A stretch of 64,000 bases of DNA from Patescibacteria group bacterium (GTDB lineage Bacteria; Patescibacteriota; Minisyncoccia; Phycocordibacterales; UBA918), in the NCBI GenBank assembly GCA_039188945.1, contig JBCCYW010000004.1:2313-66312 (forward strand), given 5' to 3'. Positions 426-21,651 of the stretch are shown here, piece after piece. Numbering within the stretch: the stretch's first letter is position 1; every line of letters starts with the position of its first letter. Made by a program: the position numbers and the translations under genes. The notes beneath the pieces are model-generated. The model searched no databases. It saw nothing but the letters and a program-made list of their open reading frames with translations, and was not told the origin of the DNA.

Positions 426-1376
426 TTACAACGAACACGCACCGTTTGTAACAGAAATGTCCCAATGAGTAGCTTCACGCACATATTCATTGCCACAACT
501 ATCAACATATCGTGGACCACCATGCGATCCTTCTCGAGTCCCAGATCTTGTCAGAGTAGTCTGGAGATAGTTATCAAGCGCCGGATTGTCGTCAAGATCA
601 ATCTTATATCCATTTGCATGACTAAAGTCTCCTCCAGCATGCCCACCTTCGGTCGCTCCAGTCACCACAATATTGCAGGTTGGGCAGGCGTTTCTAATAT
701 TTAGCGTTTGATTTACCGTATCTTCATTGATGCCACCCAAGGTCGTGCAACGATCGATTCCTGTGCAGTCAGTTCGAACTCCTGATGGGCCTTGGGTACT
801 GGTTACAACAATTCCAGCATTTTGCAGCTGACTCAGAGCTTCATCATGCTGTAGCTGCCCTTCACTCACCTCACCTGGCACAAAATCAGTCGGAGCTTCA
901 GTGGGGTCATCAAGAAAACTTTGCTCATCAACACCAGCTCCCACGAAGAACTGCACAGAGACTGTTTGTGTTTGGCACTGCACCTGTTGCCATGGTCCAT
1001 AGCCCGTAATTGTCCCTTGGTCACCAGGCAACAAGACTCGGAACAAAGTGTCGACCACAAGCCAAGCTGCCAAGACGATAATGAGGCCGATGATGGCGCT
1101 TGCAAAACGATCTTTGGCATATTCGCGCGCACTCACATCTCCAGCAGATATAACTAACTTAATACCAGCCACTGCCATCACAACTGCCACAAGCAGGAAT
1201 AAAATACCGATCAACCACGAAACAAACACATTCCCCATCGAAACCAAATTACAGAAGCTACAATTTGTTCCTTCGCAGGTGAGAAAATTTTGCGCCGTAA
1301 CCGACTCTGGGAGCGCTAGTCCAATGAAGAGAATCGTGATTGTGACAATAAGTGAAAATTTCATACTATAAATCAA
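426..1376 (-). CDS. Secreted VirB2/TrbC-like pilin N-terminal domain (signal peptide, CxxxxCxxC motif, TM-loop-TM) fused to C-terminal domain tentatively peptidase M15/VanY-like (SH-x-G...D, E-x-x-HW motifs) cell-wall hydrolase
   Basis: N-terminal ~110 aa paralogous to small pilins at 15540-17191 and to 1912..2829 (motif AIIGLII.LA.WL.VDT); C-terminal domain assignment is by weak motif recognition only. Confidence 0.6.
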   Translation of the reverse strand: MIYSMKFSLIVTITILFIGLALPESVTAQNFLTCEGTNCSFCNLVSMGNVFVSWLIGILFLLVAVVMAVAGIKLVISAGDVSAREYAKDRFASAIIGLIIVLAAWLVVDTLFRVLLPGDQGTITGYGPWQQVQCQTQTVSVQFFVGAGVDEQSFLDDPTEAPTDFVPGEVSEGQLQHDEALSQLQNAGIVVTSTQGPSGVRTDCTGIDRCTTLGGINEDTVNQTLNIRNACPTCNIVVTGATEGGHAGGDFSHANGYKIDLDDNPALDNYLQTTLTRSGTREGSHGGPRYVDSCGNEYVREATHWDISVTNGACSL

Positions 1377-1902
1377 TACTACCAGGACAAAAACTAAGCC
1401 CTAATTCTTTTGCTCCGAAGGTCTCGCTTACCCTTAAACTTGTAGCGACTCGAATGGTGAGCTGACATGCATCTGTCTCAGAAATACCTAGTTTTTCTAG
1501 CAGCTCTGCTTCAGCAGCTATCCTGGCTTGTTTAAGTGGTGGTGATTCAAGAGAGATAAGAAAACTCTCGTCAGGTGCGTGAAACAAGATTTCGTAGCCA
1601 GCTTCATTTAAGCTATTATCAGCAAATTTATAATTCTCTCCATCAAAAGTTACTGTTTCATGGAGTTTTTGTATGTTGTTAACGGTAACTGATCTACCCT
1701 GAGTACCTGACACTGAGATTCGATTTAATCCAGTTGTTACAGGAGGTGTCAAATTTGCCGACACCCCAAAGTCTTCACCAACCGGATCGTTATTAATAAA
1801 CTCATCGCTCTGCTCAGAGTCTCTGACTGACTCAACAGCCAAGAATATAATTCCGACGGCGAGTGCACTGATTATAATAATTGTTGCAAAGACTGTTTTC
1901 AT
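1366..1902 (-). CDS. Membrane-anchored secreted hypothetical protein (178 aa)
   Basis: ORF with N-terminal hydrophobic anchor; overlaps the start of the downstream gene by 11 nt and lies between the two pilin-fusion genes (operon on minus strand). Confidence 0.5.
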   Translation of the reverse strand: MKTVFATIIIISALAVGIIFLAVESVRDSEQSDEFINNDPVGEDFGVSANLTPPVTTGLNRISVSGTQGRSVTVNNIQKLHETVTFDGENYKFADNSLNEAGYEILFHAPDESFLISLESPPLKQARIAAEAELLEKLGISETDACQLTIRVATSLRVSETFGAKELGLSFCPGSIDL

Positions 1903-1911
1903 AATTGAAAA

Positions 1912-2829
1912 TTATGTTGCTAACCCACACACTCTCGCCGCAGACCAATCTGCCCATGGATTTGAAGGCTGACGGTTCGCTCTTCCATCATAAATTCTGC
2001 GAGCATTTGCTAAGTTACAACTCGGGGTTTTGGCAGCAGCAGCACACTGTTGGTAGAGACTCTGATTAACAATTGTTGCATTGTAGTTTCTGCCAGAAAA
2101 CGCTTCTGGGCAATTAAGAGTCCCTCCACCAGGACCACAGCCTCGAAGTTCATGAACGGAAATATTAATTTGAAATAATCCGAACGAAAAGGCTTCCCCG
2201 GTTGAAATACGGTCGGTTAAACTTTCGCTCTGTACGTTACCAGCACTCTCACCATTGCAAACCTGAGAAGCTTGTGACGCAAGTGTAGCGTCACCGAAAG
2301 TTGATTGTAAGCTATTTGCTGAACAAGGACCGCTCGAAATGACACTACAGCTACCATTTCCAGTTGGAGCACCAGAGCTTGATGGATCAATAGAAACACC
2401 TCCCCCGACAGTATTGAACGCTCTTGATTGCGGTTGGTCGACACACTGAATTTGATTCCAAGGGCCAAAACCACCAGTATTAAACAACAGTCGAACGACA
2501 GTATCTACAATCAGCCAACCAGCTAGCAATATGATTAAGCCGATAATTGCATTAGAGAGCATCTGTCGAGCTTTTTTATACTCAGTCACATTTCCACCAG
2601 ACATCACTAAGCGAAAGCCCGAGACAACAATAACAATTCCTGCTATTACTGAAACTATCGCGACAAAAAAGTTAACAATATTATTAACGAGCTGTACAAG
2701 GCGACAACTTTGACACTCATCGCCTGGCACGCCACTACACGGCACTAAGCCAGCTTGCGCAAATAGCTCGGCATTGGGTATAAGTAAAAAAGTAAAAACA
2801 ATAAGGCCGCCGATCAAAAGGCTTTTCAT
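1912..2829 (-). CDS. VirB2/TrbC-like pilin N-terminal domain fused to lysozyme-like / lytic transglycosylase (SLT)-like C-terminal domain
   Basis: Signal peptide, CSGVPGDECQSC motif, two TM helices with KARQMLSNAIIGLIILLAGWLIVDT (paralogous to other pilins in window); C-terminus has E-x-FSFGLFQIN and NYNAT resembling SLT motifs ES/GLMQ/AYNAG. Confidence 0.6.
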   Translation of the reverse strand: MKSLLIGGLIVFTFLLIPNAELFAQAGLVPCSGVPGDECQSCRLVQLVNNIVNFFVAIVSVIAGIVIVVSGFRLVMSGGNVTEYKKARQMLSNAIIGLIILLAGWLIVDTVVRLLFNTGGFGPWNQIQCVDQPQSRAFNTVGGGVSIDPSSSGAPTGNGSCSVISSGPCSANSLQSTFGDATLASQASQVCNGESAGNVQSESLTDRISTGEAFSFGLFQINISVHELRGCGPGGGTLNCPEAFSGRNYNATIVNQSLYQQCAAAAKTPSCNLANARRIYDGRANRQPSNPWADWSAARVCGLAT

Positions 2830-10584: not shown

Positions 10585-10614
10585 TGCCCTAGTGCCTCTG
10601 GAAACTTTGCATTG

Positions 10615-10697
10615 TGCGGGCGAGAGGACTTGAACCTCCACGAGTTACCTCACTAGTGCCTAAAACTAGCGCGTCTACCAATTCCGCCACACCCGCA
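10615..10697 (-). tRNA. tRNA-Leu (anticodon TAG), long variable arm
   Basis: Reverse complement TGCGGGTGTGGCGGAATTGGTAGACGCGCTAGTTTTAGGCACTAGTGAGGTAACTCGTGGAGGTTCAAGTCCTCTCGCCCGCA. Confidence 0.85.
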
Positions 10698-10729
10698 TTT
10701 GTAACTGCACAAGTATACACTTGTACGTG

Positions 10730-10802
10730 TCCACCCACTAGGGCTCGAACCTAGGACCGTCTGCTTAAGAGGCAGCTGCTCTACCAACTGAGCTATGGGT
10801 GG
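10730..10802 (-). tRNA. tRNA-Lys (anticodon CTT)
   Basis: Reverse complement CCACCCATAGCTCAGTTGGTAGAGCAGCTGCCTCTTAAGCAGACGGTCCTAGGTTCGAGCCCTAGTGGGTGGA; C1-G72 acceptor. Confidence 0.8.
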
Positions 10803-10860
10803 ATATATAAATTGTGCGCCCGAGTTTACCGTAAAGCCTGTTGTAAAACAAGACGCATTG

Positions 10861-10947
10861 TGCCGGGAGCGGGACTTGAACCCGCACGCCGTTTGAAAGG
10901 CAGGGGATTTTAAGTCCCCCGTGTCTACCGATTCCACCATCCCGGCA
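10861..10947 (-). tRNA. tRNA-Leu (anticodon TAA), long variable arm
   Basis: Reverse complement TGCCGGGATGGTGGAATCGGTAGACACGGGGGACTTAAAATCCCC...GGGTTCAAGTCCCGCTCCCGGCA. Confidence 0.85.
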
Positions 10948-10969
10948 AAGGATGACTGGTGTATTTTGT

Positions 10970-11044
10970 CTCGACACAGGAGACTTACAGTCCCCGCAGT
11001 TTGTGTCCCACACAATCCTGCCTACCGATTCCACCATCCCGGCA
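10970..11044 (-). repeat. tRNA-like fragment: 22-23 nt exact copy of tRNA-Leu(TAA) 5' end (TGCCGGGATGGTGGAATCGGTAG), then hairpin GCAG-GATTGTGTGGGACACAAA-CTGC and an anticodon-arm-like GGGGACTGTAAGTCTCC; no T-arm
   Basis: Direct repeat of 10925-10947 located about 75 nt upstream (on minus strand) of the intact gene. Confidence 0.65.
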
Positions 11045-11114
11045 TGGAAGTGTGCGCAGCATAATAGCATAATTACTTGGTGAAAAAAGGCTCAAATGCT
11101 ACAGTATCGCTTAC

Positions 11115-11161
11115 GGCCAGGTGGCGAAGTAGATAGAGTGTGCTGGGAGCAGACTCTATCT
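11115..11161 (+). repeat. 16-nt exact copy of tRNA-Cys 5' end (GGCCAGGTGGCGAAGT) followed by hairpin AGATAGAGT-GTGCTGGGAGCAG-ACTCTATCT, 83 nt upstream of intact tRNA-Cys
   Basis: Direct repeat with 11198-11213. Confidence 0.7.
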
Positions 11162-11197
11162 GAGGTCTTAGACCGAATCGTTATCTGGCTGAAAGTT

Positions 11198-11269
11198 GGC
11201 CAGGTGGCGAAGTGGTAACGCTTCGGTCTGCAAAACCGACATGCACGGGTTCGATTCCCGTCCTGGCCT
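11198..11269 (+). tRNA. tRNA-Cys (anticodon GCA)
   Basis: GGCCAGGTGGCGAAGTGGTAACGCTTCGGTCTGCAAAACCGACATGCACGGGTTCGATTCCCGTCCTGGCCT. Confidence 0.9.
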
Positions 11270-11273
11270 CAGA

Positions 11274-12890: not shown

Positions 12891-13154
12891 GATGGGGGTA
12901 CTATACCCCGACCGTGCGGTCGGGCAATGGTGCCCACCATAAATAGTTCGCGGCTCGGGCTTTCATCCTCGCCGCCTTGAAAATAGAAAGGAAAACGCAT
13001 GCAGCGGTTTCTTGATCTACTCAAAACAATCGGAGAAAATTTCGGACCCTCCATTGTGAGGGCCTGGAGTCTTCTATCTTCGTTCGTTTCAAGTGCTTGG
13101 GCAGGTGTCACCTCCCAGTATAAAAACCTCGAACAGATCAAAATGGAGGTGTTG

Positions 13155-14612
13155 ATGAAATATCTCAAATTTACCCTCTTTGCAGGGCTGCTGGTAGCGC
13201 TCGCGTTCGTCGTTGGCACCTACCATGTACTGATCCTGGAATGGATTCAAGAGAACCCAGAACTCGCAATCGCACTATCTATTGCAATGGCAACAATCCT
13301 TGGTGTCTGGTTCTTGTGGTTCCGAAAAGAAAACGGACCAGATACACCTCAACAAGAAGATTCGGTTACAAAACCTGAGGAGAAAATCATGAAACTTCCC
13401 ATAACGGGTGGCGTCATGATTGTCGCCCTTGAACTACTGATCACCAGTGTTGGGACAATTGCTATTTCTCTCTATGAGACTGGCAAACTTCTCCCTCCAG
13501 CAATGGAGTGGTCTGCAGAGCTTAGCTTGGCAAACGTCTGGCTGATTCTGGGACTAGTCTACACTGGAGCGAGCTTTCGTTTCGACCAACTGATCCAAGC
13601 TGACCAACTCGCGGTTCGTACTATCTTTGGTCGTCCGACTGACGTCATGAGTTCTGGTGTTCCGATTCTGCCGCCAGGCATCGGAGATCAAATCGTACTT
13701 CCCACTGACGTGATCCAGGATGAACATCCTGGAGAACCTGAAAAGATCTTTAGAAATGAAGATCAGCAAGCGGTCCCTGACGGTATGGTGCCCCCGTTTC
13801 GAGTCACCTTCGGAGCTGCTATCAGTGAAGATGCAGCAAGGAATATGTTCAAAGACGAGTTCTCTGTTACTGACAGATACGGTAGAGAGATCGAGTTTAA
13901 AGCGGAGGTTGAAGAGGATCTGTTGTCCAAACGGGTAACTGGTGAAGTCGTGACAGTTTCACGCTACAGAATCGTGGAAGCGATTCCGTTTGTGAAATTT
14001 ATCGGAGGCACCAAACAGGCGAGTGGGCAAATTGAAGACGAAATCTTTGGAGTGGTTCAACGAATCTATCCGAAGATTAGTCTGGCGCAAGCTCTGCAAA
14101 ATATTGATTGGATGAATGCCATTCTTTATGAAGCAGCGAAACGGCGAGTAAGTGCTGTTGATGGTCGTCAAGCATGGGGTATTGATATTGAGGACGCGTT
14201 TGTCAAATCACTACCTCAGAGCCACAGCCTCAACAACTCTATCCAGAGTATTGCTGAAACCGAAGCTGATGCCGTAAACCGAGAAAGACTTGCCGAAACC
14301 GATCGTGTTGAGCGGGAAAAGGCCGGTCAAGGTGACGCAGCTGCAGAACAAGCACTGCTGGAAGCACGTGGTGATGGGTACCATTACATTGCTATAAAAA
14401 CTCGTGTTAAGGGTGCAGAACTTGCTCAACGGACTGATGCGGCACGTCAACTTGCTGAGGCAGGTAATGTTATTGTAACGGACGGAAACGGTGCCACCGG
14501 GTCACTTTTGGGTCTGATCACTGCGGGCGCAGCTGTTGCTAACCGAGAAAAGATCTCGGGCAACAGTCAGTTGCCCGAGGGAGAAACAAACCTAAACGAA
14601 AGTGAGAACTGA
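13155..14612 (+). CDS. SPFH/band-7 domain membrane protein (flotillin/HflK-like) with N-terminal TM helices
   Basis: GGAGGTG SD before MKYLKF start; SPFH-like core (VRTIFGR...VSRYRIVEAIPFVKF) and Ala/Glu/Arg-rich flotillin-like tail; family call by eye. Confidence 0.55.
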   Translation: MKYLKFTLFAGLLVALAFVVGTYHVLILEWIQENPELAIALSIAMATILGVWFLWFRKENGPDTPQQEDSVTKPEEKIMKLPITGGVMIVALELLITSVGTIAISLYETGKLLPPAMEWSAELSLANVWLILGLVYTGASFRFDQLIQADQLAVRTIFGRPTDVMSSGVPILPPGIGDQIVLPTDVIQDEHPGEPEKIFRNEDQQAVPDGMVPPFRVTFGAAISEDAARNMFKDEFSVTDRYGREIEFKAEVEEDLLSKRVTGEVVTVSRYRIVEAIPFVKFIGGTKQASGQIEDEIFGVVQRIYPKISLAQALQNIDWMNAILYEAAKRRVSAVDGRQAWGIDIEDAFVKSLPQSHSLNNSIQSIAETEADAVNRERLAETDRVEREKAGQGDAAAEQALLEARGDGYHYIAIKTRVKGAELAQRTDAARQLAEAGNVIVTDGNGATGSLLGLITAGAAVANREKISGNSQLPEGETNLNESEN

Positions 14613-15448
14613 TGTACACACTTCTTGTTGTAGTAGCTATAGTTGGTGGAATATGGCTACTACGGAGACCTCAAGCTGAACCAGCCGCGGCTCCAAAGCG
14701 CACCACTGAGAGTGCTGGCGAGAAAAGAACTGTCGAAGGTTACTTTCCTAGCAACATCATGAGTTCCATATTACCTGGTCAGGTGATTATTGGAGTAGCG
14801 ATACTTGTCCTTGCTTTAGCGCTTTTCTTCGGTGACCAGAACACTGGCATCTTTGAAAAGATTAGCGATTGGAAGATCTGGGAGGATCCTATTTTTCTCC
14901 TGATCAGCCTCATAGCTACTCTAGGCTTTGTTGGAGCTCATACAACAGCCGGACAAGGAACTGAGCTTGTAAAGGTGGCTCGCTGGGTATATCGGGTTTC
15001 GCTCGGTGTTCTGCTTCTGTATAGCGTCACTTGGTTCTTCGAGTCTAAAAAAGTTGAAGACCCAGTGAAACTAACTCTCGAAGCTGTCACTGCCTGCGCT
15101 CAAGATCGGAACCAATGTCCTAGTATCAATCTATTCGGAACTGATCAGTCAAACAAGACCACCAATCATGTTGTTTCGGCCAATCGAGTACCCACTCTGG
15201 CCGACTACGACCGTAGGGTCACAATCGGTGCCGATCCGGTTGGGTTCCGGATCGCCAACTCAGGTGGATGCGTGTTCGCACAGAAGGTCAGCGGTGGCAA
15301 CATCTTTGCCGAAGCGCTGTACCTCAACGAGACGCAGCGGGCAGCTGGGAAGCCGAATGGCTTTGCCTACAGTAGCCCAGATGGTGCTGTAATCAATGTC
15401 AATCGCCATGTCCACAAAGGACAAACCTGGCGGGGTACGACATGCTGA
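14612..15448 (+). CDS. Integral membrane protein with Cys-containing C-terminal extracytoplasmic domain, translationally coupled (ATGA overlap) to the SPFH gene
   Basis: 4 predicted TM helices; 4-nt start/stop overlap. Confidence 0.55.
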   Translation: MYTLLVVVAIVGGIWLLRRPQAEPAAAPKRTTESAGEKRTVEGYFPSNIMSSILPGQVIIGVAILVLALALFFGDQNTGIFEKISDWKIWEDPIFLLISLIATLGFVGAHTTAGQGTELVKVARWVYRVSLGVLLLYSVTWFFESKKVEDPVKLTLEAVTACAQDRNQCPSINLFGTDQSNKTTNHVVSANRVPTLADYDRRVTIGADPVGFRIANSGGCVFAQKVSGGNIFAEALYLNETQRAAGKPNGFAYSSPDGAVINVNRHVHKGQTWRGTTC

Positions 15449-15539
15449 TCCTTTCGAACTTACGGTGGGCCCCGAAGGGCCCACCCGTGAACTACCGCCC
15501 GCGTGCTACGTGCATGGGGCGGTTTCTTTTTATATAAAT

Positions 15540-15854
15540 CTATCGGTCGAGATTAATACAAGGCGAGCCTGTATTGGTTGTACAATTCTGGAGATTACCT
15601 CCCAACCCAAAGGTGCCCGCAAACACACTCAAGAGTGCATAGGCCGATACCATCACCAAGAGGCCAATAATCCCCCACAACATACGCCGTCTCCCCTCTT
15701 CCCGGGCTGTTTCATTGTTAGCGTTAGCGACAAATAAAAACCCACCCCACAAAAACACAAACAAAGCGACTGTGCTCAAGAGAAAAATAATCGGAAACAG
15801 AATAATTTCATTAAAACGAGCAACAAACTGAAATGCTAAATCCTGACCTGGCAT
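15540..15854 (-). CDS. VirB2/TrbC-like pilin family protein (104 aa, TM-loop-TM)
   Basis: Two hydrophobic helices separated by a charged loop, similar architecture to neighbouring pilins. Confidence 0.55.
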   Translation of the reverse strand: MPGQDLAFQFVARFNEIILFPIIFLLSTVALFVFLWGGFLFVANANNETAREEGRRRMLWGIIGLLVMVSAYALLSVFAGTFGLGGNLQNCTTNTGSPCINLDR

Positions 15855-15877
15855 TACTACTAAGTGTACCGTAGCTC

Positions 15878-15918
15878 ACCCAAAAACAAACAAACCCCGG
15901 TGGATGCCGGGGTTTGTT
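15878..15918 (-). terminator. Intrinsic terminator after pilin gene 15933..16340 (CAAACCCCGG-hairpin followed by TTTGTTTGTTTTT on minus strand)
   Basis: GC stem plus T-tract. Confidence 0.65.
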
Positions 15919-15932
15919 TGCTGGACGTGTGG

Positions 15933-16340
15933 TTAATTACCAACGTCAGGTCCTTGTGGAGCGTCAAGTGGACCAGTACCCACTTCAACACCGAAGGCGC
16001 CAGCGATAATGTTGACGAGGCTCCAGAGAGCAACAATCGCCACAAAACCAATGATGGCGTAGAGCATCAGGTTACGACCTTGTGCGCGCTTCTCATCGTC
16101 ACCACCACCAAGGATGAAGTACTGGATAACACCCCAGATAAACACCAATACCGCAAAAGCAATCGCCAATGGGATAAGGAAGTTATTTACGAGGTTAACG
16201 AGAGCTTCAATAAGCTGACCAAAGGTTCCAGTTTCACCTTGTAGCAAACCACTCTGCGCAAACACCAATACAGGTAGGAAAGCAAACAGACTTACCGCAC
16301 CTTTTACAATATTAATTTTAGACATAAATACGTTATACAT
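15933..16340 (-). CDS. VirB2/TrbC-like pilin (signal peptide, TM-loop-TM; 135 aa)
   Basis: LVNLVNNFLIPLAIAFAVLVFIWG...RAQGRNLMLYAIIGFVAIVALWSL paralogous to the N-termini of 426..1376 and 1912..2829. Confidence 0.7.
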   Translation of the reverse strand: MYNVFMSKINIVKGAVSLFAFLPVLVFAQSGLLQGETGTFGQLIEALVNLVNNFLIPLAIAFAVLVFIWGVIQYFILGGGDDEKRAQGRNLMLYAIIGFVAIVALWSLVNIIAGAFGVEVGTGPLDAPQGPDVGN

Positions 16341-16417
16341 TACTAATCAGTAACTTCCTGTGATTATACAAGAAAAAGCTGATTTTACCAGAGCATCTCT
16401 CCCCTCTGTGCATAACT

Positions 16418-16666
16418 CTAGCCAAATAAGCTGCGGCGCAAAAAGCCGATAATTGCCCACACACTCAGCATAATGACAATCACAATAATGCCTACCAGAG
16501 CGGTGTTTTGTCCCTCCTGGACCTTCGTAGCGTCTCCACCATTAAGGATCCACGCATCGATTAAGCGCCATATGAAATAGATTATGGTGAGGGTGATGAG
16601 TACCGGAATAGCGGTATTGATAAGGTTGATGAAAATTTGGATCAGCTCAGCAAATGTAGTAGGCAT
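16418..16666 (-). CDS. VirB2/TrbC-like pilin (82 aa)
   Basis: TM-loop(GGDATKVQEGQN)-TM, same family pattern. Confidence 0.6.
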   Translation of the reverse strand: MPTTFAELIQIFINLINTAIPVLITLTIIYFIWRLIDAWILNGGDATKVQEGQNTALVGIIVIVIMLSVWAIIGFLRRSLFG

Positions 16667-16678
16667 ACTAAAAATTAA

Positions 16679-17191
16679 CTAGCGTTGAAACTCAGTAACG
16701 ACATTCTCGATAATAGCTATAATCGCCTCAGCGCCGAGAATAATCACTCCACCAATCACGGCGTAGAGGAGGGCTCGCTGGGCTTCTTCAATCTGGCTGG
16801 AATTACCTTGGGCCATAACATATTTGAAGCCAGCATAAATAATGAAGAAGACGATGATCGGCACCATCAGAATCACTACAATATTGAGGATAGCGACCAA
16901 CAGACCTTCGAGCGAGCCGACGGTGAGGGGGTTACAGAGACGACTTGTGGTATCGCAGGGAGCAGTACCTCCGCCTCCACCAACAACGGGATTGTCTCCG
17001 CCTCCGCCTCCCAAGACTGGATTATCGCCCCCACCTCCTCCTAGAACTGGATTGTCGCCAGGACATGCAACCTCGTCTCCAAAAGGATCGAAACAGACTG
17101 CTGCCGCAGGTTCGGGCGTTATTAAGTAGAAACCAATACTTACTACTATGGTTACTGCGAGTACTATGACCTGACGAAACGTAACTGACAT
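16679..17191 (-). CDS. VirB2/TrbC-like pilin with N-terminal extension containing 3 tandem DNPVLGGGGG repeats and Cys motif
   Basis: C-terminal pilin core (LEGLLVAILNIVVILMVPIIV...EEAQRALLYAVIGGVIILGAEA); start moved to MSVTFRQ to avoid 47-nt overlap with upstream gene. Confidence 0.65.
   Translation of the reverse strand: MSVTFRQVIVLAVTIVVSIGFYLITPEPAAAVCFDPFGDEVACPGDNPVLGGGGGDNPVLGGGGGDNPVVGGGGGTAPCDTTSRLCNPLTVGSLEGLLVAILNIVVILMVPIIVFFIIYAGFKYVMAQGNSSQIEEAQRALLYAVIGGVIILGAEAIIAIIENVVTEFQR
16969..17059 (-). repeat. 3 x 30-bp tandem repeat encoding GDNPV(L/V)GGGGG within a pilin gene
   Basis: Seen directly: repeated ggattgtctccgcctccgcctccc / ggattatcgcccccacctcctcc units on plus strand. 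Confidence 0.8.
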
Positions 17192-17192
17192 A

Positions 17193-18518
17193 CTAGTATC
17201 CATTGCTAATACTAAACATAATAGCACGCACCGCCTCACTCACGCTGCTGCGGTTAGAAAGAATATCCTCTACCCCATCCGCAAAAGCTTCTGTCGCCAC
17301 AATTGGCTCTGGTGAAAGCCACCCAAACGCCGCAATCGCTGCACGATAGCGAATCTGCTCAATTGGGTTAAATGAGCCAGCAGTGAGCAGATCGCGGCGC
17401 GCTGGTGCCATAGACAAACTACTTGAGAAAAGTGAGAGCTGCTGTGGGCGACTAGCGATAGTTCTAATCGCTGCCAGCGCGCCGTTTTGATTCTGTGAAG
17501 CACGTAAGATTGCCAATCCATAGTAATCACCATAGGTACGCCGAACACTTGTACCCGCGGCCTGCGGAACTTCAGCAATATCAAAGTTAAGGTTTGGATT
17601 CAAGCGAGCAAGGTTGTCGTACTCACTTCCCAACCCCAAGTAGACAGCGAGATCACCAGCCGCAAAGGCGTTGGTATCTTGTGCCTGAACCCGATTCCAT
17701 GAATAGAGCGGGTTATTTACGGTCGAGAAGCTGGTAAAAAACTCTAGCGCACTGGTGAGCGGCCGCTGGACATTGGCGTTAACTGAACGATCAAGACTTA
17801 CCTGATAGGTACGACCATCTTCAAGCACCATCTGACTACCGCCCTGCAGTAAGAGCGTGCTCACAATCGCAAACGCGTTGGTAATATTACTGAATTCACC
17901 CAGCGCAATCGGACTCAATAAAATATTTCGATTAAAATCACGAACAACGACAGTTGGTACTACATCACCAACAATTTCTTCCCAGGTCCGCGGTGCAGCC
18001 GCGAAGTTATTGGCTGAAAAAATATCTCGATTCCAATACATAACCAAAGGATCAACCGCCAGCGGGGTGGCGTAAATACCATCTGAAAGTGTGAATATTT
18101 CTGCACCGTCAGCGTAGGTATCGAGATGGGTTCGTTGGTCGTACCCTGGAATTTGGCTATCGTACGGAATCGGAGTGATTTTCGTGCGTAGGTTCGCTAA
18201 CTCAGTATGTGGAATCAAAACTACATCTGGCGATCGCCCTTCAGCAATAGCATCGACCAACTCAGCCACAAAGGTTCGTTCGTCTAGCTGGCGATAGCTC
18301 ACCACCTGAAAATCTTCGACTTCAGCCCGAATATCTTGAATCATCTTATTGACAACCTGACGATCAAGCGTGCCCCAAATCTGTACCTGGTTGCCAAACA
18401 CTGGCGCATCAGTTTGCGATGATGGCTGGTAGGTTACAAACAGCACACCGCCAACAAACATCAGCACCACAAAAATGGCTATGAGGGCTATTTGAAATGG
18501 TCGAGGGCCGCTTTGCAT
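17193..18518 (-). CDS. Membrane-anchored extracytoplasmic protein, tentatively solute-binding-protein-like (441 aa)
   Basis: N-terminal TM anchor then large soluble domain; family assignment weak. Confidence 0.5.
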   Translation of the reverse strand: MQSGPRPFQIALIAIFVVLMFVGGVLFVTYQPSSQTDAPVFGNQVQIWGTLDRQVVNKMIQDIRAEVEDFQVVSYRQLDERTFVAELVDAIAEGRSPDVVLIPHTELANLRTKITPIPYDSQIPGYDQRTHLDTYADGAEIFTLSDGIYATPLAVDPLVMYWNRDIFSANNFAAAPRTWEEIVGDVVPTVVVRDFNRNILLSPIALGEFSNITNAFAIVSTLLLQGGSQMVLEDGRTYQVSLDRSVNANVQRPLTSALEFFTSFSTVNNPLYSWNRVQAQDTNAFAAGDLAVYLGLGSEYDNLARLNPNLNFDIAEVPQAAGTSVRRTYGDYYGLAILRASQNQNGALAAIRTIASRPQQLSLFSSSLSMAPARRDLLTAGSFNPIEQIRYRAAIAAFGWLSPEPIVATEAFADGVEDILSNRSSVSEAVRAIMFSISNGY

Positions 18519-18521
18519 AGA

Positions 18522-19073
18522 TTATAGTTTTCGATAGGCGTGCGCGAAGTGATGATCGCCAGCATCATAACCGCGTTCAAACAAAAAGCCGTGTGACTCA
18601 AAATGTGCCTTTGTAGTCTCAGGATCAACCACCTGCTCTGGATGCGGGCCAAGACCACCAAACGATTCCGTCCAGTCAACGACATGAAGGATGCCACCTG
18701 GCCGCAGCGTACGATGAATTTCCTTAATAGCTACTTCTTTATTTTCAAACTGAAAAAATGTATTGATCAGTAACCCAACGTCTAGAGTATTGTCTGAAAT
18801 CCTAATGCCGCCCGCTGCTTCCAAGTCGCACCAAAGAGGGTCAATGTTCATTAAACCCTGACTCCGGGCCACATCACCGAGTTTCTCAACCAGCTGTTTT
18901 TGGATCTCACAGGCGTACACCCGGCCACTTGCACCAACACCAGCCGAGAGCACTCTCAAAAAGTAGCCACTGCCGGCGCCGAAATCAGCCGCCACGTCAC
19001 CTTCTTTAAGATGAAAATGTGTAACAATTTTTTCTGGAATCACAAAGCGTCCCGTCGGCATTGGGATATTCAT
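18522..19073 (-). CDS. Class I SAM-dependent methyltransferase
   Basis: DFGAGSGYF motif I. Confidence 0.75.
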   Translation of the reverse strand: MNIPMPTGRFVIPEKIVTHFHLKEGDVAADFGAGSGYFLRVLSAGVGASGRVYACEIQKQLVEKLGDVARSQGLMNIDPLWCDLEAAGGIRISDNTLDVGLLINTFFQFENKEVAIKEIHRTLRPGGILHVVDWTESFGGLGPHPEQVVDPETTKAHFESHGFLFERGYDAGDHHFAHAYRKL

Positions 19074-19179
19074 ATATATAAAGTATACCTCTCAGTCTAG
19101 TTTGGAGTTATTGACGAGGTGGATAGAAAGCGGCCCGGATCATAAAATGATCCGGGCCGCTTTCTCCTAGTGTGTCTTT

Positions 19180-21651
19180 CTATACAAACACAATACTCGC
19201 AATCGCGTCACCCGAGCGCATTTTCATCACCCGCACCCCTTGCGTATCGCGACCAAGTGATGGCACGTCTTTAATCGGCAACTTAATCACCTGTCCCTTC
19301 TTACTCATGATCACCAACTCACCTTCCTTGCGATCTTCGCCTGAGATCACGATGCCGCCCACAATCTTGCCGGTCTTATCGGTCACTTTAGCGGTCTTGA
19401 TACCAGACCCACCTCGTTTCTGTACTTTATATTCTTTAGCCGGCGTGGTCTTCCCGTAGCCATGTTCAGTCACCACCAGAATCTCTCGATCCTTCTCGCC
19501 CTTCTTAAAGACTTCGGCTGAAACCACTCCGTCGCCCTTCACGAGCTTCATGGCTGCGACTCCAGCAGCCGTGCGGCCCATTTGACGCACATCACCTTCT
19601 GCAAATCGGATAGCCTGACCACCTCGTGAGACCAAGCTCACCTCGTCACCCTTACCAACAAACTGCGCGGCAATCAGTGAGTCGCCACCCTTAAGGGTAA
19701 TTGCGATTAAGCCTGAACGACGAACGTCCTTAAACGCACTGGCGTCTGACTTTTTCGCCACGCCATTTTTGGTCACCATCATCAAGCCCCAATCACCTTC
19801 CCAATCATCCTTACGGACCGCCAACACTGAGGTCACTCGCTCTTCGCTCGTGAGCGCCAAGAAGTTAGCAATTGATTTACCCTTAGTTGCGCGACGGCCT
19901 TCCGGAATTTCGTACATCTTCGTGCTGTACACCTTGCCTTGATCAGTGAAGAACAGAAGATCGCTATGGGTAGAGGTCGTCAGAAGTGTCGTGACCACAT
20001 CTTCCTCTTTGGTATTCAAATCAACCACTCCAACGCCACCGCGCTTTTGCGTGCGGTATTCACTTGGGTTAGTGCGTTTCACATACCCACCTTGGGTTAG
20101 CACAAGCACCGATTCCTCATCTGGCACCAAGTCTTCCGGATTAATCTGCTTCACGCCACCTTTCACAATTTTGGTGCGACGATCATCACCGTATTTTTCT
20201 GCCACTTCAGCCAGTTCTTTCTTGATGAGCGTCAGCATTTTCTTCTTGCTCTTGAGGATTGATTCGAGTTCTTTAATGAGCGCCTGCACTTCTTTCAATT
20301 CATCCTCAATCTTCTTGCGCTCCAAGCCAGCGAGCTTCTGCAAGCGCATATCAAGAATTGCCTGCGCCTGGACGTCAGAGAACTTAAATTCCTTCATCAA
20401 CTTGGCGTGCGCTGTTGGCACATCTTTGGCAGCCCGAATCAGCTTGATGATTTTATCGATATGATCGAGCGCTTTCTTCAAACCAAGCAAGATATGCTCG
20501 CGATCTTTGGCCTTACCAAGATCGTACTCAGTGCGACGACGAACCACTTCTTGACGATGTTTGATGTATTCCTCAAGAATCGCCTTCAGCGATAACGTCT
20601 GAGGTACGCCGTCTACCAGCGCCACCATGTTGTAGTGGAAGGTTTCTTCCAACTGGGTGTGTTTGTAGAGTTTATTTAAAACCGTCTGCGGGTTCGCAGC
20701 CGACTTGAGGTCAATCACCACGCGAATATCAGCAGTTGATTCGTCTCGCATCTCCTTGATACCTTCAATTTTCTTATCGCGCACCAACATAGCGATCTTC
20801 TCCTGCATATCAGCTTTATTCACGCGGAACGGAATTGAGGTAATCACAATTGAGAACGCTCCTTTCTTGTCTTCCACAATCTCAGCTTCTCCGCGCACCT
20901 TCACACCACCCTTGCCGTTGGCGTAGGCATGCGCGATATCTTTTTGATTAAACGCAATCGCACCCATTGGAAAATCAGGGCCTTTCACAAATTTCAAAAG
21001 ATCATCGGTTGAGGCATCTGGATTATCAATGAGGTGATCAACTGCTTCGGCTACTTCTCGTAAGTTGTGCGGTGGGATGTTGGTCGCCATACCAACGGCG
21101 ATTCCAAGCTCTCCTTTCAAGAGTAAGTTGGGTACCGCTGCCGGCAACACGGTCGGCTCTTTCTTAGTGCCGTCAAAGTTTGGCCGCCAATCGACGGTAT
21201 CCTTCTCAAGGTCTCGCAACATCTCCTCAGCAATGCGAGACATCTTTGCTTCAGTATATCGATATGCCGCCGCTCCATCACCATCGATAGAACCAAAATT
21301 ACCTTGCCCAATCACCAGTGGGTAGCGAGTCGTAAATGGCTGAGCCAACTTCACCATCGATTCGTACACTGCGACATCACCATGCGGATGAAAGCTACCA
21401 AGTACGTCACCGACGACCGTCGCCGACTTTTTGAATTTCGCTGAAGCAGTGAGACCGTTTAAACGCATTGAGTATAAAATTCGGCGATGCACTGGCTTGA
21501 GGCCATCGCGCACGTCAGGCAACGCTCGTGAGGTGATCACGCTCATGGCGTAATCAAGGTATGCCGTCTCCATTTCTGAGGTGATATTTTGAGTCACAAT
21601 GCCTCGTTCTGGCTCAATTGAGGCGTCTTCTTTGACGGTCTTTTTAGGCAT
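19180..21651 (-). CDS. gyrA: DNA gyrase subunit A
   Basis: [27 protein letters not shown], active-site region [13 protein letters not shown]-terminal beta-pinwheel repeats. Confidence 0.95.

What the first reader, a model, noticed from the sequence alone, without database searches (positions are those of the whole stretch)
15540..18518. Tandem array of four VirB2/TrbC-like pilin paralogs with anchored binding-protein, co-transcribed after gyrA and a methyltransferase
Four small secreted two-helix proteins (104, 135, 82 and about 170 aa) lie in tandem on the minus strand. They follow a 441-aa membrane-anchored extracytoplasmic protein, and an intrinsic terminator separates the last pilin. The paralogs are diverged rather than recently duplicated, which suggests major and minor pilins of a pilus-like or T4SS-like surface structure. 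No VirB4/VirD4/PilB ATPase or secretin is present in this window, so the assembly machinery is encoded elsewhere or is unconventional.
Basis: partly seen in the sequence, partly recalled or inferred. Interest (0 to 1): 0.6.

Follow-up and report, generated by a model that had tools for sequence, protein, structure and literature searches.

The report
Binding protein wired to four pilins
An ultra-small Patescibacteria bacterium carries four different VirB2-like pilus-subunit genes next to a membrane-anchored sugar-binder-type protein; such pilin arrays are already known in this group, but the fixed four-part set and its physical link to the binding protein appear undescribed and suggest how the structure might recognise a host.

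Summary
Four small two-helix membrane proteins (170, 82, 130-135 and 104 aa) follow a TM-anchored 441-aa solute-binding protein (SBP) and a methyltransferase, and a textbook terminator sits before the last one. Three pass Pfam's threshold for PF18895 (T4SS_pilin). The 82-aa copy does not, but profile-profile comparison shows it is a paralog. No VirB4, VirD4 or PilB gene lies in the 64 kb.

The kind is already published. VirB2-like pilin arrays are reported in 383 Patescibacteria assemblies and are essential in Southlakia; NCBI already names one of these genes 'pilin'.

What this work adds:
- Methyltransferase-SBP-pilin array is conserved in every informative locus of 83 Paceibacteria-type genomes, none with an ABC importer beside it.
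- Each pilin has positional orthologs (45-74% identity, against 23-36% between paralogs), so this is an ancient fixed set, not a variation cassette.
- In at least six protein clusters the SBP is fused in frame to the first pilin.
- Spacing defines two units: [MTase-SBP-pil1-pil2] and [pil3(-pil4)].

Co-transcription with gyrA is doubtful, because an 18-bp hairpin intervenes.

Best reading: one major and several minor pilins of the patescibacterial T4SS, encoded elsewhere, with an SBP-fold binding module attached to pilin 1. No pilus has been demonstrated.

The parts
18522..19073 (-). Class I SAM-dependent methyltransferase (183 aa), first gene of the module
   Evidence: Pfam Methyltransf_11/25/31, E 3e-12. 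It lies directly upstream of the SBP gene in all 78 related loci that hold upstream sequence. The gap to the SBP start is 3 nt here, and the two genes overlap in L003 and L004. Its substrate is unknown.
17193..18518 (-). Membrane-anchored extracytoplasmic solute-binding protein (441 aa), MalE-like fold
   Evidence: PF01547 at 55.1 bits and PF13416 at 50.1 bits. The AF2 model has pLDDT 91.8, with a TM helix at residues 7-29 and a two-lobe SBP. The best PDB folds are maltodextrin and other oligosaccharide binders, E about 1e-20 at 13-18% identity. R6, P7, F8 and F16 at the N-terminus and in the anchor helix are invariant. The family has 1514 clusters at E<=1e-30. It is fused in frame to pilin 1 in P0216, P0217, P0219, P0286, P0290 and P0426.
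16679..17191 (-). Pilin 1 (170 aa): signal anchor, Gly-rich linker, Cys pair, pilin hairpin. This is the most TrbC/VirB2-like paralog and the one coupled to the SBP
   Evidence: PF18895 at 30.3 bits (threshold 26.6); PF04956 TrbC at E 0.0016. Of 29 orthologs, 29 match PF18895 and 27 match PF04956. Its start codon is 1 nt after the SBP stop. The median SBP-to-pilin-1 gap is 5 nt in 35 arrays. Its best hit is position 1 in 49 of 81 loci, with up to 74% identity.
16971..17059 (-). 30-nt x 2.9 tandem repeat inside pilin 1, encoding (GDNPV[LV]GGGG)x3
   Evidence: Tandem Repeats Finder, score 88; translation. It forms a flexible linker between the signal anchor and the pilin domain.
16418..16666 (-). 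Pilin 2 (82 aa): bare hairpin without a signal peptide; a divergent paralog that Pfam's threshold misses
   Evidence: PF18895 only 13.7 bits, but hhalign to the other positional families gives 98.8-99.8%. 25 of 29 orthologs match PF18895 at E<=0.01. The gap after pilin 1 is 12 nt here and has a median of 1 nt in 35 arrays.
16341..16417 (-). Spacer with a promoter-like element (TGtATAAT) upstream of pilin 3
   Evidence: Sequence. In 35 four-gene arrays this spacer has a median of 101 nt and is never 20 nt or less; 31 of 35 contain a -10-like hexamer, against 3-4 of 35 for the two preceding junctions. The promoter function is inferred and not shown.
15933..16340 (-). Pilin 3 (130 aa from the ATG at 16325; 135 aa as the longest ORF): Sec-type signal peptide plus hairpin; candidate major subunit
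   Evidence: PF18895 at 45.3 bits, the best of the four. AF2 gives helices 4-27, 32-72 and 77-110. NCBI names it 'pilin'. It has its own upstream spacer and a strong terminator downstream.
15882..15921 (-). Intrinsic terminator after pilin 3
   Evidence: A 15-bp stem, 6-nt loop and UUUUU; the spacer folds at -34.3 kcal/mol, z -5.0. A hairpin followed by a T-run occurs after pilin 3 in 11 of 35 related arrays and never after pilins 1 or 2.
15540..15854 (-). Pilin 4 (104 aa): hairpin without a signal peptide, with a C-terminal Cys pair; always the last gene of the array
   Evidence: PF18895 at 31.3 bits. Its best hit is the last array position in 74 of 81 loci, with 54-67% identity to orthologs.
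15449..15539 (.). Two GC-rich hairpins between the convergent genes (end of the array)
   Evidence: Folds at -40.6 kcal/mol, z -4.1.
19121..19167 (-). Strong hairpin between gyrA and the methyltransferase; probable boundary of the transcription unit
   Evidence: An 18-bp perfect stem, -44.7 kcal/mol, z -8.3, with no U tract. TATACT lies 9 nt before the methyltransferase ATG.

Best explanation
The locus is a deeply conserved module of Paceibacteria-type Patescibacteria. It encodes a cytoplasmic methyltransferase, a membrane-anchored MalE-fold binding protein, and four anciently diverged, non-interchangeable pilins of the VirB2/TrbC superfamily (Pfam PF18895).

Shown:
- The family membership of the pilins.
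- The helical-hairpin architecture.
- The fixed gene order across about 80 genomes, with position-by-position orthology.
- The absence of ABC importer genes beside the SBP.
- Repeated in-frame fusion of the SBP to pilin 1.
- A conserved two-unit layout: [MTase-SBP-pil1-pil2], tightly packed, then about 100 nt with a -10-like element, then [pil3], often followed by a terminator, then pil4.

Inferred:
- The pilins are inserted into the cell membrane by Sec/YidC, with pilins 1 and 3 carrying N-terminal signal sequences.
- They are then used by the patescibacterial T4SS (VirB4, VirB6, PrgI and others), which is related to monoderm conjugation machinery and is encoded elsewhere in the genome.
- Pilin 3 is the abundant major subunit.
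- Pilins 1, 2 and 4 are low-copy subunits for initiation, tip or base.
- The SBP sits on pilin 1 outside the membrane as a ligand-recognising module, probably for an oligosaccharide. That would give the structure its specificity for a host surface or a host-derived molecule, a role analogous to the VirB5 tip adhesin that these systems lack.
- The role of the methyltransferase (pilin or lipid modification, or none) is open.
For: Family membership:
- PF18895 is above threshold for three of the four pilins.
- The fourth is tied in by hhalign at 98.8-99.8% and by its orthologs.
- 27 of 29 pilin-1 orthologs match TrbC/VirB2, best E 2.9e-8.
- There are near-threshold hits to the Mycoplasma ICE pilin-like family NF045849 (37.4 and 34.7 bits against a cutoff of 40).
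- The AF2 model is a helical hairpin.

Organism: NCBI names the source 'Patescibacteria group bacterium'. Five related genomes are GTDB class Paceibacteria.

Conservation:
- At least 579 species-level genomes carry the SBP.
- In the best 80 of those plus 3 further loci, every locus with downstream sequence has 2-7 pilin genes directly after the SBP, and every locus with upstream sequence has the methyltransferase.
- This holds down to 34-38% SBP identity and in 6 loci with no gyrA in the upstream sequence held.

Positional orthology: pilin 1 matches position 1 (49 of 81 loci), pilin 2 position 2 (41), pilin 3 position 3 (45) and pilin 4 the last position (74 of 81). Ortholog identity is 45-74%, against 23-36% between paralogs.

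Physical link between SBP and pilin 1:
- In-frame fusion proteins of 560, 568, 579, 594 and 597 aa, plus one fragment, come from different sources.
- The fused domain is of the position-1 type.
- The median SBP-to-pilin-1 gap is 5 nt.

Orphan SBP: only 1 of 83 loci has any ABC-ATPase-like ORF within 7-10 kb, and that one is on the other strand.

Expression layout.

Literature: pilin arrays of this family are essential in Southlakia and sit inside its T4SS cluster (PMC10633639). 441 such arrays are reported (PMC12102498). VirB4 is listed as present in 3 of 5 cross-checked relatives.
Against: - No T4SS core gene lies within 64 kb here, or within 7-10 kb in the three relatives whose gene calls were read. 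The link to a T4SS therefore rests on family membership and literature and not on local context.
- Two of five cross-checked relatives, both draft Kaiserbacteria MAGs, are listed as lacking VirB4.
- Direct homology to classical VirB2 is weak. The window proteins are below the PF04956 threshold (19.0 bits against 27.9). hhalign against nine alphaproteobacterial VirB2/TrbC proteins gives only 1-18% probability.
- Foldseek and HMM searches of the PDB find no pilin; a helical hairpin is not a discriminating fold.
- The SBP keeps a conserved N-terminal TM helix with invariant residues. That fits a membrane-resident partner better than a pilus-tip protein, unless the helix is cleaved.
- The major/minor assignment rests only on gene layout.
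- No pilus of this kind has been imaged in any Patescibacterium.
Confidence: 0.6

Rival explanations
1. T4SS-independent membrane device. The SBP and the small two-helix proteins form their own complex in the cell membrane, for example an uptake channel or a sensor fed by the SBP, and never polymerise into a pilus. On this reading the 'pilin' family name is only ancestry.
For: - The module is never next to T4SS genes: 64 kb here, and none in the gene calls of L002-L004.
- The SBP keeps a conserved TM anchor.
- Fusions give a three-TM protein that would be hard to extract from the membrane.
- There is no partner ABC permease or ATPase.
- Two related drafts are listed without VirB4.
- Patescibacteria must import most building blocks (PMC10633639).
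Against: - The family is the same as the essential pilins inside the Southlakia T4SS cluster.
- Pilin-1 orthologs match TrbC/VirB2 at E 2.9e-8.
- No transporter built from VirB2-like hairpins is known.
- Three of five relatives do have VirB4.
Confidence: 0.17
2. Neighbours without a shared function. The SBP serves an ordinary ABC sugar importer encoded elsewhere, the pilins serve the T4SS, and their adjacency only reflects the frozen gene order of reduced genomes.
For: Long-range synteny is strong around the locus: YbeY, HisRS, gyrA and others through rhodanese, RbfA and IF-2 in L002-L004. The SBP has a standard MalE-like fold.
Against: - In-frame SBP::pilin-1 fusions occur in at least three different architectures.
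- The junctions are only 1-5 nt.
- The adjacency survives where surrounding synteny, including gyrA and rhodanese, is lost.
- No ABC importer genes are seen in any of the 83 loci.
Confidence: 0.08
3. Variation cassette. The paralogs are interchangeable versions of one pilin, kept to vary the surface or to fit different host strains, as proposed for VirB2 arrays in Bartonella and Anaplasma and suggested for Patescibacteria in PMC12102498.
For: Low identity between paralogs (23-36%) resembles the 25% mean reported for such arrays. Array size varies from 2 to 7 among relatives.
Against: - Each position has its own conserved orthologs across genomes with only 35-50% SBP identity.
- The paralogs differ in architecture: presence of a signal peptide, linker and Cys pairs.
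- They also differ in their place within the two transcription units.
- This pattern is subfunctionalisation, not diversification.
Confidence: 0.05

Closest known systems
Essential pilin array of Ca. Southlakia epibionticum ML1 (SEML1_0014-0019; Wang et al. 2023, PMC10633639)
   Same: It is a tandem series of sequence-divergent PF18895 (some also PF04956) two-helix pilins in a Patescibacterium. No relaxase or coupling protein is recognisable. Function is presumed to be at the host interface.
   Different: In Southlakia the array has six genes and lies inside the T4SS cluster with VirB4, PrgI and VirB6, and no SBP or methyltransferase appears among the cluster rows retrieved. Here there are four genes, far from any T4SS gene, always behind a methyltransferase and an SBP, in class Paceibacteria and not Saccharimonadia.
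VirB2 arrays of Patescibacteria catalogued by Quinonero-Coronel et al. 2025 (PMC12102498)
   Same: [quoted passage not shown] The 82-aa pilin 2 type, which Pfam misses, could be an example of such a gene.
   Different: That paper reports arrays as most abundant in Microgenomatia and Saccharimonadia, does not mention an SBP or gyrA, and interprets the paralogs as variation. Here the set is fixed and orthologous position by position.
Classical VirB2/TrbC conjugative pilins (PF04956; Agrobacterium VirB2, RP4 TrbC)
   Same: They are small propilins with two hydrophobic helices joined by a short polar loop. Pilin-1 orthologs match the Pfam model (27 of 29, best E 2.9e-8).
   Different: The window copies are below threshold, and hhalign to nine alphaproteobacterial VirB2 proteins gives at most 18%. 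The host is a monoderm. There is no adjacent VirB1 or VirB3 as in the plasmid loci. Two of the four lack a signal peptide.
VirB5-type minor pilin / tip adhesin of Gram-negative T4SS
   Same: This is a functional analogy only: a low-copy binding component expressed with the pilin that is proposed to nucleate the pilus and end up at its tip (PMC12857230).
   Different: There is no sequence or fold relationship. Here the binding module has an SBP (MalE-like) fold with its own TM helix, tethered or fused to a pilin hairpin.
Mbov_0395 / MMCAP2_0565 pilin-like conjugal transfer protein of Mycoplasma ICEs (NCBIfam NF045849)
   Same: This is the closest curated NCBIfam family for all four proteins (E 1.5e-9 to 0.011). 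It belongs to monoderm conjugation systems, the same class (MPF-FATA) from which the patescibacterial T4SS is thought to derive.
   Different: All scores are below the family cutoff (37.4 bits at most against 40). That family is a single-copy ICE gene and not a chromosomal array.
MalE-type oligosaccharide-binding proteins of ABC importers (PF01547/PF13416)
   Same: The two-lobe fold is the same (Foldseek E about 1e-20, TM 0.6-0.7) and the Pfam scores are above threshold.
   Different: Identity is only 13-18%. The protein is anchored by a conserved TM helix and not a lipid. There is no permease or ATPase partner in any of the 83 loci. It is fused to a pilin in several lineages.

Membership tests
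Pfam PF18895 T4SS_pilin | Score at or above the gathering threshold (26.6 bits) | tested here: met
   Pilin 3 scores 45.3, pilin 4 scores 31.3 and pilin 1 scores 30.0-30.3 bits. Pilin 2 scores only 13.7 bits, so it is not met for that copy alone. It is rescued by hhalign at 98.8-99.8% to the other three families and by 25 of 29 orthologs matching at E<=0.01.
Pfam PF18895 T4SS_pilin | Two hydrophobic helices forming a hairpin with a short polar loop | tested here: met
   Hydropathy scan. AF2 model of pilin 3 has helices 32-72 and 77-110 with pLDDT 85-94 in the hairpin.
Pfam PF04956 TrbC/VirB2 pilin | Score at or above the gathering threshold (27.9 bits) | tested here: inconclusive
   The window copies are below threshold: pilin 1 at 19.0 bits (E 0.0016) and pilin 3 at 13.7 bits. 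However, 27 of 29 pilin-1 orthologs match at E<=0.01, best 2.9e-8. hhalign against nine alphaproteobacterial VirB2/TrbC proteins gives only 1-18% probability (E 0.001-0.04; reversed control E 0.2-0.4).
Pfam PF04956 TrbC/VirB2 pilin | Encoded within a T4SS gene cluster (VirB1/B3/B4/B6 neighbours) | tested here: not met
   No such gene is among the ORFs of 150 aa or more scanned in the 64-kb window, in 1.9 kb beyond it, or in the gene calls of L002-L004. In the classical loci, virB1 and virB3 flank virB2.
Pfam PF04956 TrbC/VirB2 pilin | Polymerises into an extracellular pilus (with bound phospholipid) | not testable with these tools
   This needs microscopy or biochemistry. It has not been shown for any Patescibacterium according to PMC12857230.
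Patescibacterial VirB2-like pilin arrays (PMC12102498; PMC10633639) | Two or more tandem PF18895/PF04956 genes in a Patescibacteria genome, with low identity between copies | tested here: met
   There are four tandem copies at 23-36% identity. The source is named 'Patescibacteria group bacterium', and relatives are GTDB class Paceibacteria.
Patescibacterial VirB2-like pilin arrays (PMC12102498; PMC10633639) | Located near virB4 (as in Southlakia, and in 1135 of 1948 assemblies) | tested here: not met
   No virB4 is found in the window. This is not an absolute requirement of the class, since about 800 assemblies in that study also have the pilin away from virB4.
ABC-importer solute-binding protein, family 1 (PF01547) | Pfam score above threshold and a two-lobe MalE-like fold | tested here: met
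   55.1 bits against a threshold of 26. The AF2 model has pLDDT 91.8, and Foldseek finds MalE-type binders at E about 1e-20.
ABC-importer solute-binding protein, family 1 (PF01547) | Works with a cognate permease pair and ATPase, usually in the same operon | tested here: not met
   None is found in the window among the scanned ORFs. Only 1 of 83 loci has any Walker-A + LSGGQ ORF within 7-10 kb, and it is on the opposite strand. A partner elsewhere in the genome cannot be excluded.
NCBIfam NF045849 Mbov_0395 pilin-like conjugal transfer protein | Score at or above the curated cutoff (40 bits) | tested here: not met
   The four score 37.4, 34.7, 19.5 and 15.5 bits. They are related but not members.

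The most novel reading that the evidence does not exclude
The SBP-fold protein is a structural, ligand-recognising subunit of the pilin assembly itself. It is held on pilin 1, and in some lineages covalently fused to it. Either a T4SS pilus carries a MalE-like receptor at its tip or base to pick out a host glycan, or the SBP and the four hairpin proteins form a new kind of SBP-fed conduit that brings host-derived molecules into a cell that cannot make them. Either way, this would be the first SBP built into a VirB2-type pilin structure, conserved across a whole class of Patescibacteria.
Probability: 0.3. Interest if true: 0.75.

Novelty: new variant of a known kind. Interest (0 to 1): 0.5.

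Why it matters
How Patescibacteria attach to and feed from their hosts is a central open question. Their T4SS with VirB2-like pilins is the only T4SS known to be essential for its owner, yet what it binds or moves is unknown. Almost all experimental work is in Saccharimonadia.

This locus shows that the largest class, Paceibacteria, keeps a differently organised and very conserved pilin set tied to a binding protein of a fold that is easy to express and assay. That yields concrete experiments:
- Identify the SBP ligand.
- Test the SBP-pilin-1 contact.
- Measure the stoichiometry of the four pilins.

The positional orthology argues against the published 'variation' reading for this type of array. 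The 82-aa pilin-2 type shows that Pfam-based surveys undercount these genes.

Tried and rejected
- **Foldseek of the pilin-3 model against the PDB:** no match below E 0.28. The hits were generic helical hairpins such as SK-channel and Mediator fragments.
- **HMM of 71 pilin-3 orthologs against PDB sequences:** nothing meaningful.
- **hhalign of the four positional families against nine VirB2/TrbC proteins fetched from plasmids:** low probabilities. I therefore do not claim direct VirB2 homology from that test.
- **C-terminal domains of the 305-aa and 316-aa pilin-domain proteins at 426-2829:** from motifs I suspected a lytic transglycosylase and an M15/LAS peptidase. Pfam and PDB sequence searches give no support, so the idea is dropped.
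- **The 178-aa ORF between those two proteins:** it is not a pilin by any of my profiles.
- **The consensus promoter/terminator scanner:** it missed the obvious terminator and found no more sites than in shuffled sequence. Direct reading and folding were used instead.
- **Exact-sequence look-up of the 316-aa form:** failed because the recorded gene starts four codons later.
- **Table S3 of PMC12102498:** it is cut in the stored copy before the genomes I wanted, so gene positions of VirB4 relative to the array in relatives could not be read.
- **Weak hits to TctB, PrgI, DUF5671 and KdpA:** treated as hydrophobic-helix noise.

Full report
**What is there**

On the minus strand the window reads as follows:
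- gyrA (19180-21651)
- a 106-nt spacer
- a 183-aa SAM-dependent methyltransferase (18522-19073)
- a 441-aa solute-binding protein, SBP (17193-18518)
- four small ORFs: pilin 1 (16679-17191, 170 aa from the ATG that follows the SBP stop by 1 nt), pilin 2 (16418-16666, 82 aa), pilin 3 (15933-16340; 130 aa from the ATG at 16325) and pilin 4 (15540-15854, 104 aa)

An independent gene caller on a second assembly of the same DNA gives the same genes. Each small protein has two strongly hydrophobic helices. Pilins 1 and 3 also carry an N-terminal signal sequence; pilins 2 and 4 do not.

It has a 15-bp stem, a 6-nt loop and UUUUU at 15882-15921, between pilins 3 and 4.

**Family**

[quoted passage not shown] Pilin 2 reaches only 13.7 bits. 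I built alignments of the four positional families from related genomes. They match each other by hhalign at 98.2-99.8%, and 25 of 29 pilin-2 orthologs match PF18895. So the 82-aa ORF is a genuine, divergent paralog.

The link to classical VirB2/TrbC is remote but present:
- The window's pilin 1 gives E 0.0016 to PF04956, below threshold. Of its 29 orthologs, 27 match, best E 2.9e-8.
- A direct profile-profile test against nine alphaproteobacterial VirB2/TrbC proteins, fetched from plasmids, gave only 1-18% probability.
- Searches of the PDB by fold and by sequence were uninformative.
- The AF2 model of pilin 3 is a signal helix plus a helical hairpin, pLDDT 78.9. This is compatible with a VirB2-type pilin but is not diagnostic.
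- The nearest curated NCBIfam family is the Mycoplasma ICE 'pilin-like conjugal transfer protein' NF045849, just below its cutoff. That fits the published derivation of the patescibacterial T4SS from monoderm conjugation systems.

**Organism and prior knowledge**

NCBI holds the SBP and pilin 3 as proteins of a 'MAG: Patescibacteria group bacterium' on a 68.6-kb contig, and already calls pilin 3 'pilin'. The rest of the window is housekeeping: ClpB, IscS, IF-2, GlmS, LepA, MurJ, FtsA, FtsZ, tRNA synthetases and nine tRNAs.

The literature already describes this kind of feature:
- Wang et al. 2023 found an essential series of pilin genes inside the T4SS cluster of Southlakia.
- Quinonero-Coronel et al. 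2025 counted 441 VirB2 arrays of 2-11 genes in 383 assemblies, with mean identity 25%.
- A 2025 review notes only the 'potential' to make pili.

The finding as written is therefore a further example of a known kind.

**What the surroundings add**

The SBP is the informative part.
- It has more than 1000 close homologs of about 435 aa and 1514 clusters at E<=1e-30 among 1.84 billion representatives.
- A scan of species-representative genomes gave at least 579 loci.
- I analysed the best 80 of these plus three loci from long contigs with a pilin HMM built from the window and BLAST markers.
- Every locus that extends downstream has 2-7 pilin-domain ORFs directly after the SBP; most have 4 (33 loci) or 5 (24 loci).
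- Every locus that extends upstream has the methyltransferase directly before the SBP.
- This holds down to 34-38% SBP identity and 62-68% gyrA identity.
- It also holds in six loci with no gyrA in the roughly 6 kb held upstream.
- Five of these genomes appear in the published table, all as GTDB class Paceibacteria. VirB4 is listed as present in three and absent in two drafts.

**Positional orthology**

Each window pilin finds its best match at the same array position in other genomes: pilin 1 at position 1 (49 of 81 loci, up to 74% identity), pilin 2 at position 2 (41), pilin 3 at position 3 (45) and pilin 4 at the last position (74 of 81). Paralogs within the window share only 23-36%. The four types also differ in architecture. 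This is an old, subfunctionalised set. It is not a cassette of interchangeable variants as suggested for such arrays.

**The SBP is physically tied to pilin 1**

- In two species the SBP and a pilin domain form one ORF of 562 and 570 codons, stop to stop (560-aa and 568-aa proteins).
- Protein searches found further fusion proteins of 594, 597 and 579 aa and one fragment. They come from NCBI, JGI and Logan assemblies and have different linkers.
- The fused domain is of the pilin-1 type.
- The topology is consistent: an N-terminal TM helix, the SBP outside the membrane, then a hairpin whose N-terminus is also outside.
- In unfused loci the SBP-to-pilin-1 gap has a median of 5 nt, and the pilin-1-to-pilin-2 gap a median of 1 nt.
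- The SBP models confidently (pLDDT 91.8) as a MalE-like two-lobe protein. It is closest to maltodextrin and other oligosaccharide binders at 13-18% identity. Residues R6, P7, F8 and F16 at the N-terminus and in the anchor helix are invariant.
- No ABC importer partner is nearby. Only one of 83 loci has any ABC-ATPase-like ORF within 7-10 kb, and it is on the other strand.

**Expression layout**

- The gyrA-methyltransferase spacer contains an 18-bp perfect hairpin (-44.7 kcal/mol, z -8.3) and a TATACT 9 nt before the ATG. Co-transcription with gyrA is therefore doubtful.
- Across 35 four-gene arrays the pil2-pil3 spacer has a median of 101 nt and is never 20 nt or less. It carries a -10-like hexamer in 31 of 35 arrays, against 3-4 of 35 at the two preceding junctions.
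- A hairpin followed by a T-run occurs after pilin 3 in 11 arrays, after pilin 4 in 14, and after pilins 1 and 2 in none.
- The conserved pattern is [MTase-SBP-pil1-pil2] plus [pil3(-pil4)]. This is what one would expect if pilin 3 is made in bulk and the others in small, matched amounts. That reading is an inference.

**Interpretation**

The best-supported reading is a set of one major and three minor VirB2-superfamily pilins. They would be used by the patescibacterial T4SS encoded elsewhere. An SBP-fold module bound to pilin 1 would provide ligand recognition at the cell surface, a functional stand-in for the VirB5-type adhesin these systems lack.

The main rival is that the SBP and the hairpin proteins form a membrane device of their own, independent of any T4SS. 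Three observations leave that open: the lack of any local T4SS gene, the conserved SBP anchor helix, and two VirB4-negative drafts.

Mere adjacency is disfavoured by the fusions. Antigenic-type variation is disfavoured by the positional orthology.

**Limits**

- I could not search the rest of the source genome, so the presence of VirB4 there is unknown.
- Fold comparison with solved pilins could not be run.
- The promoter, the stoichiometry, the ligand and the role of the methyltransferase are all unmeasured.
- The taxonomic labels of many related MAGs are generic.

**Verdict**

The pilin interpretation is supported and the gyrA co-transcription is not. The kind is already known. The Paceibacteria form, with its fixed four-pilin set coupled to and sometimes fused with an SBP and a methyltransferase, was not mentioned in the papers I could search. 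It is best filed as a new variant of a known kind, of moderate interest.

Noticed in passing
window 426-2829 (minus strand): A second group of pilin-domain genes lies here. A 305-aa protein (1912-2829) and a 312/316-aa protein (426-1364/1376) each have a signal peptide, a Cys-loop and a PF18895 hairpin (E 9e-11 and 1.6e-9), followed by a Cys-rich extracellular domain of about 190 aa with no Pfam or PDB sequence match. A 178-aa non-pilin membrane-anchored ORF (1366-1902) sits between them. These look like pilin-anchored effector or adhesin domains.
   Followed up: partly
window 19121-19167: An 18-bp perfect GC-rich hairpin (-44.7 kcal/mol, z -8.3) without a U tract lies between gyrA and the methyltransferase. 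It may be a factor-dependent or unconventional terminator typical of this lineage.
   Followed up: partly
window 16971-17059: A 30-nt tandem repeat (2.9 copies) encodes (GDNPV[LV]GGGG)x3 in the linker of pilin 1. No such extension is seen in the orthologs as aligned in A3, but those were cut a few residues before the pilin domain, so linker variability among relatives was not properly assessed.
   Followed up: no
window 12999-15448 (plus strand): Two convergent genes lie tail-to-tail with pilin 4. One encodes a 537-aa membrane protein with a weak SPFH/Band_7 match (its counterparts at this position in L002 and L003 carry PF01145). The other encodes a 278-aa multi-TM protein without a family. 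A c537 homolog was detected by BLAST at this position in 11 of 83 related loci, and convergent genes of similar size occupy the position in L002-L004. A link to the pilin module was not tested.
   Followed up: no
L002 9026-9388 and about ten other loci (between gyrA and the methyltransferase): An extra weak pilin-like ORF of 110-146 aa (23-38 bits with the window-derived HMM, no Pfam hit) precedes the methyltransferase in some relatives. It is absent from the window, where the hairpin spacer takes its place.
   Followed up: no
L061 6986-8665, L070 3504-5213; proteins P0286, P0290, P0426, P0219: These are natural in-frame fusions of the SBP to a position-1 pilin domain, with linkers of differing length and a conserved Cys...Cys loop just before the first pilin helix. 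The same Cys-loop precedes the hairpin in the two long pilin-domain proteins at window 426-2829.
   Followed up: yes
window 10614-11270: A tRNA cluster lies here: Leu(tag), Lys(ctt) and Leu(taa) on the minus strand and Cys(gca) on the plus strand. Long spurious ORFs overlap the cluster.
   Followed up: no
SBP residues 1-30 (window 18429-18518): The N-terminus and TM anchor of the SBP carry invariant residues (R6, P7, F8, F16) across 27 orthologs at 43-57% identity. That is unusual for a simple anchor and suggests a specific intramembrane contact or a sorting signal.
   Followed up: no
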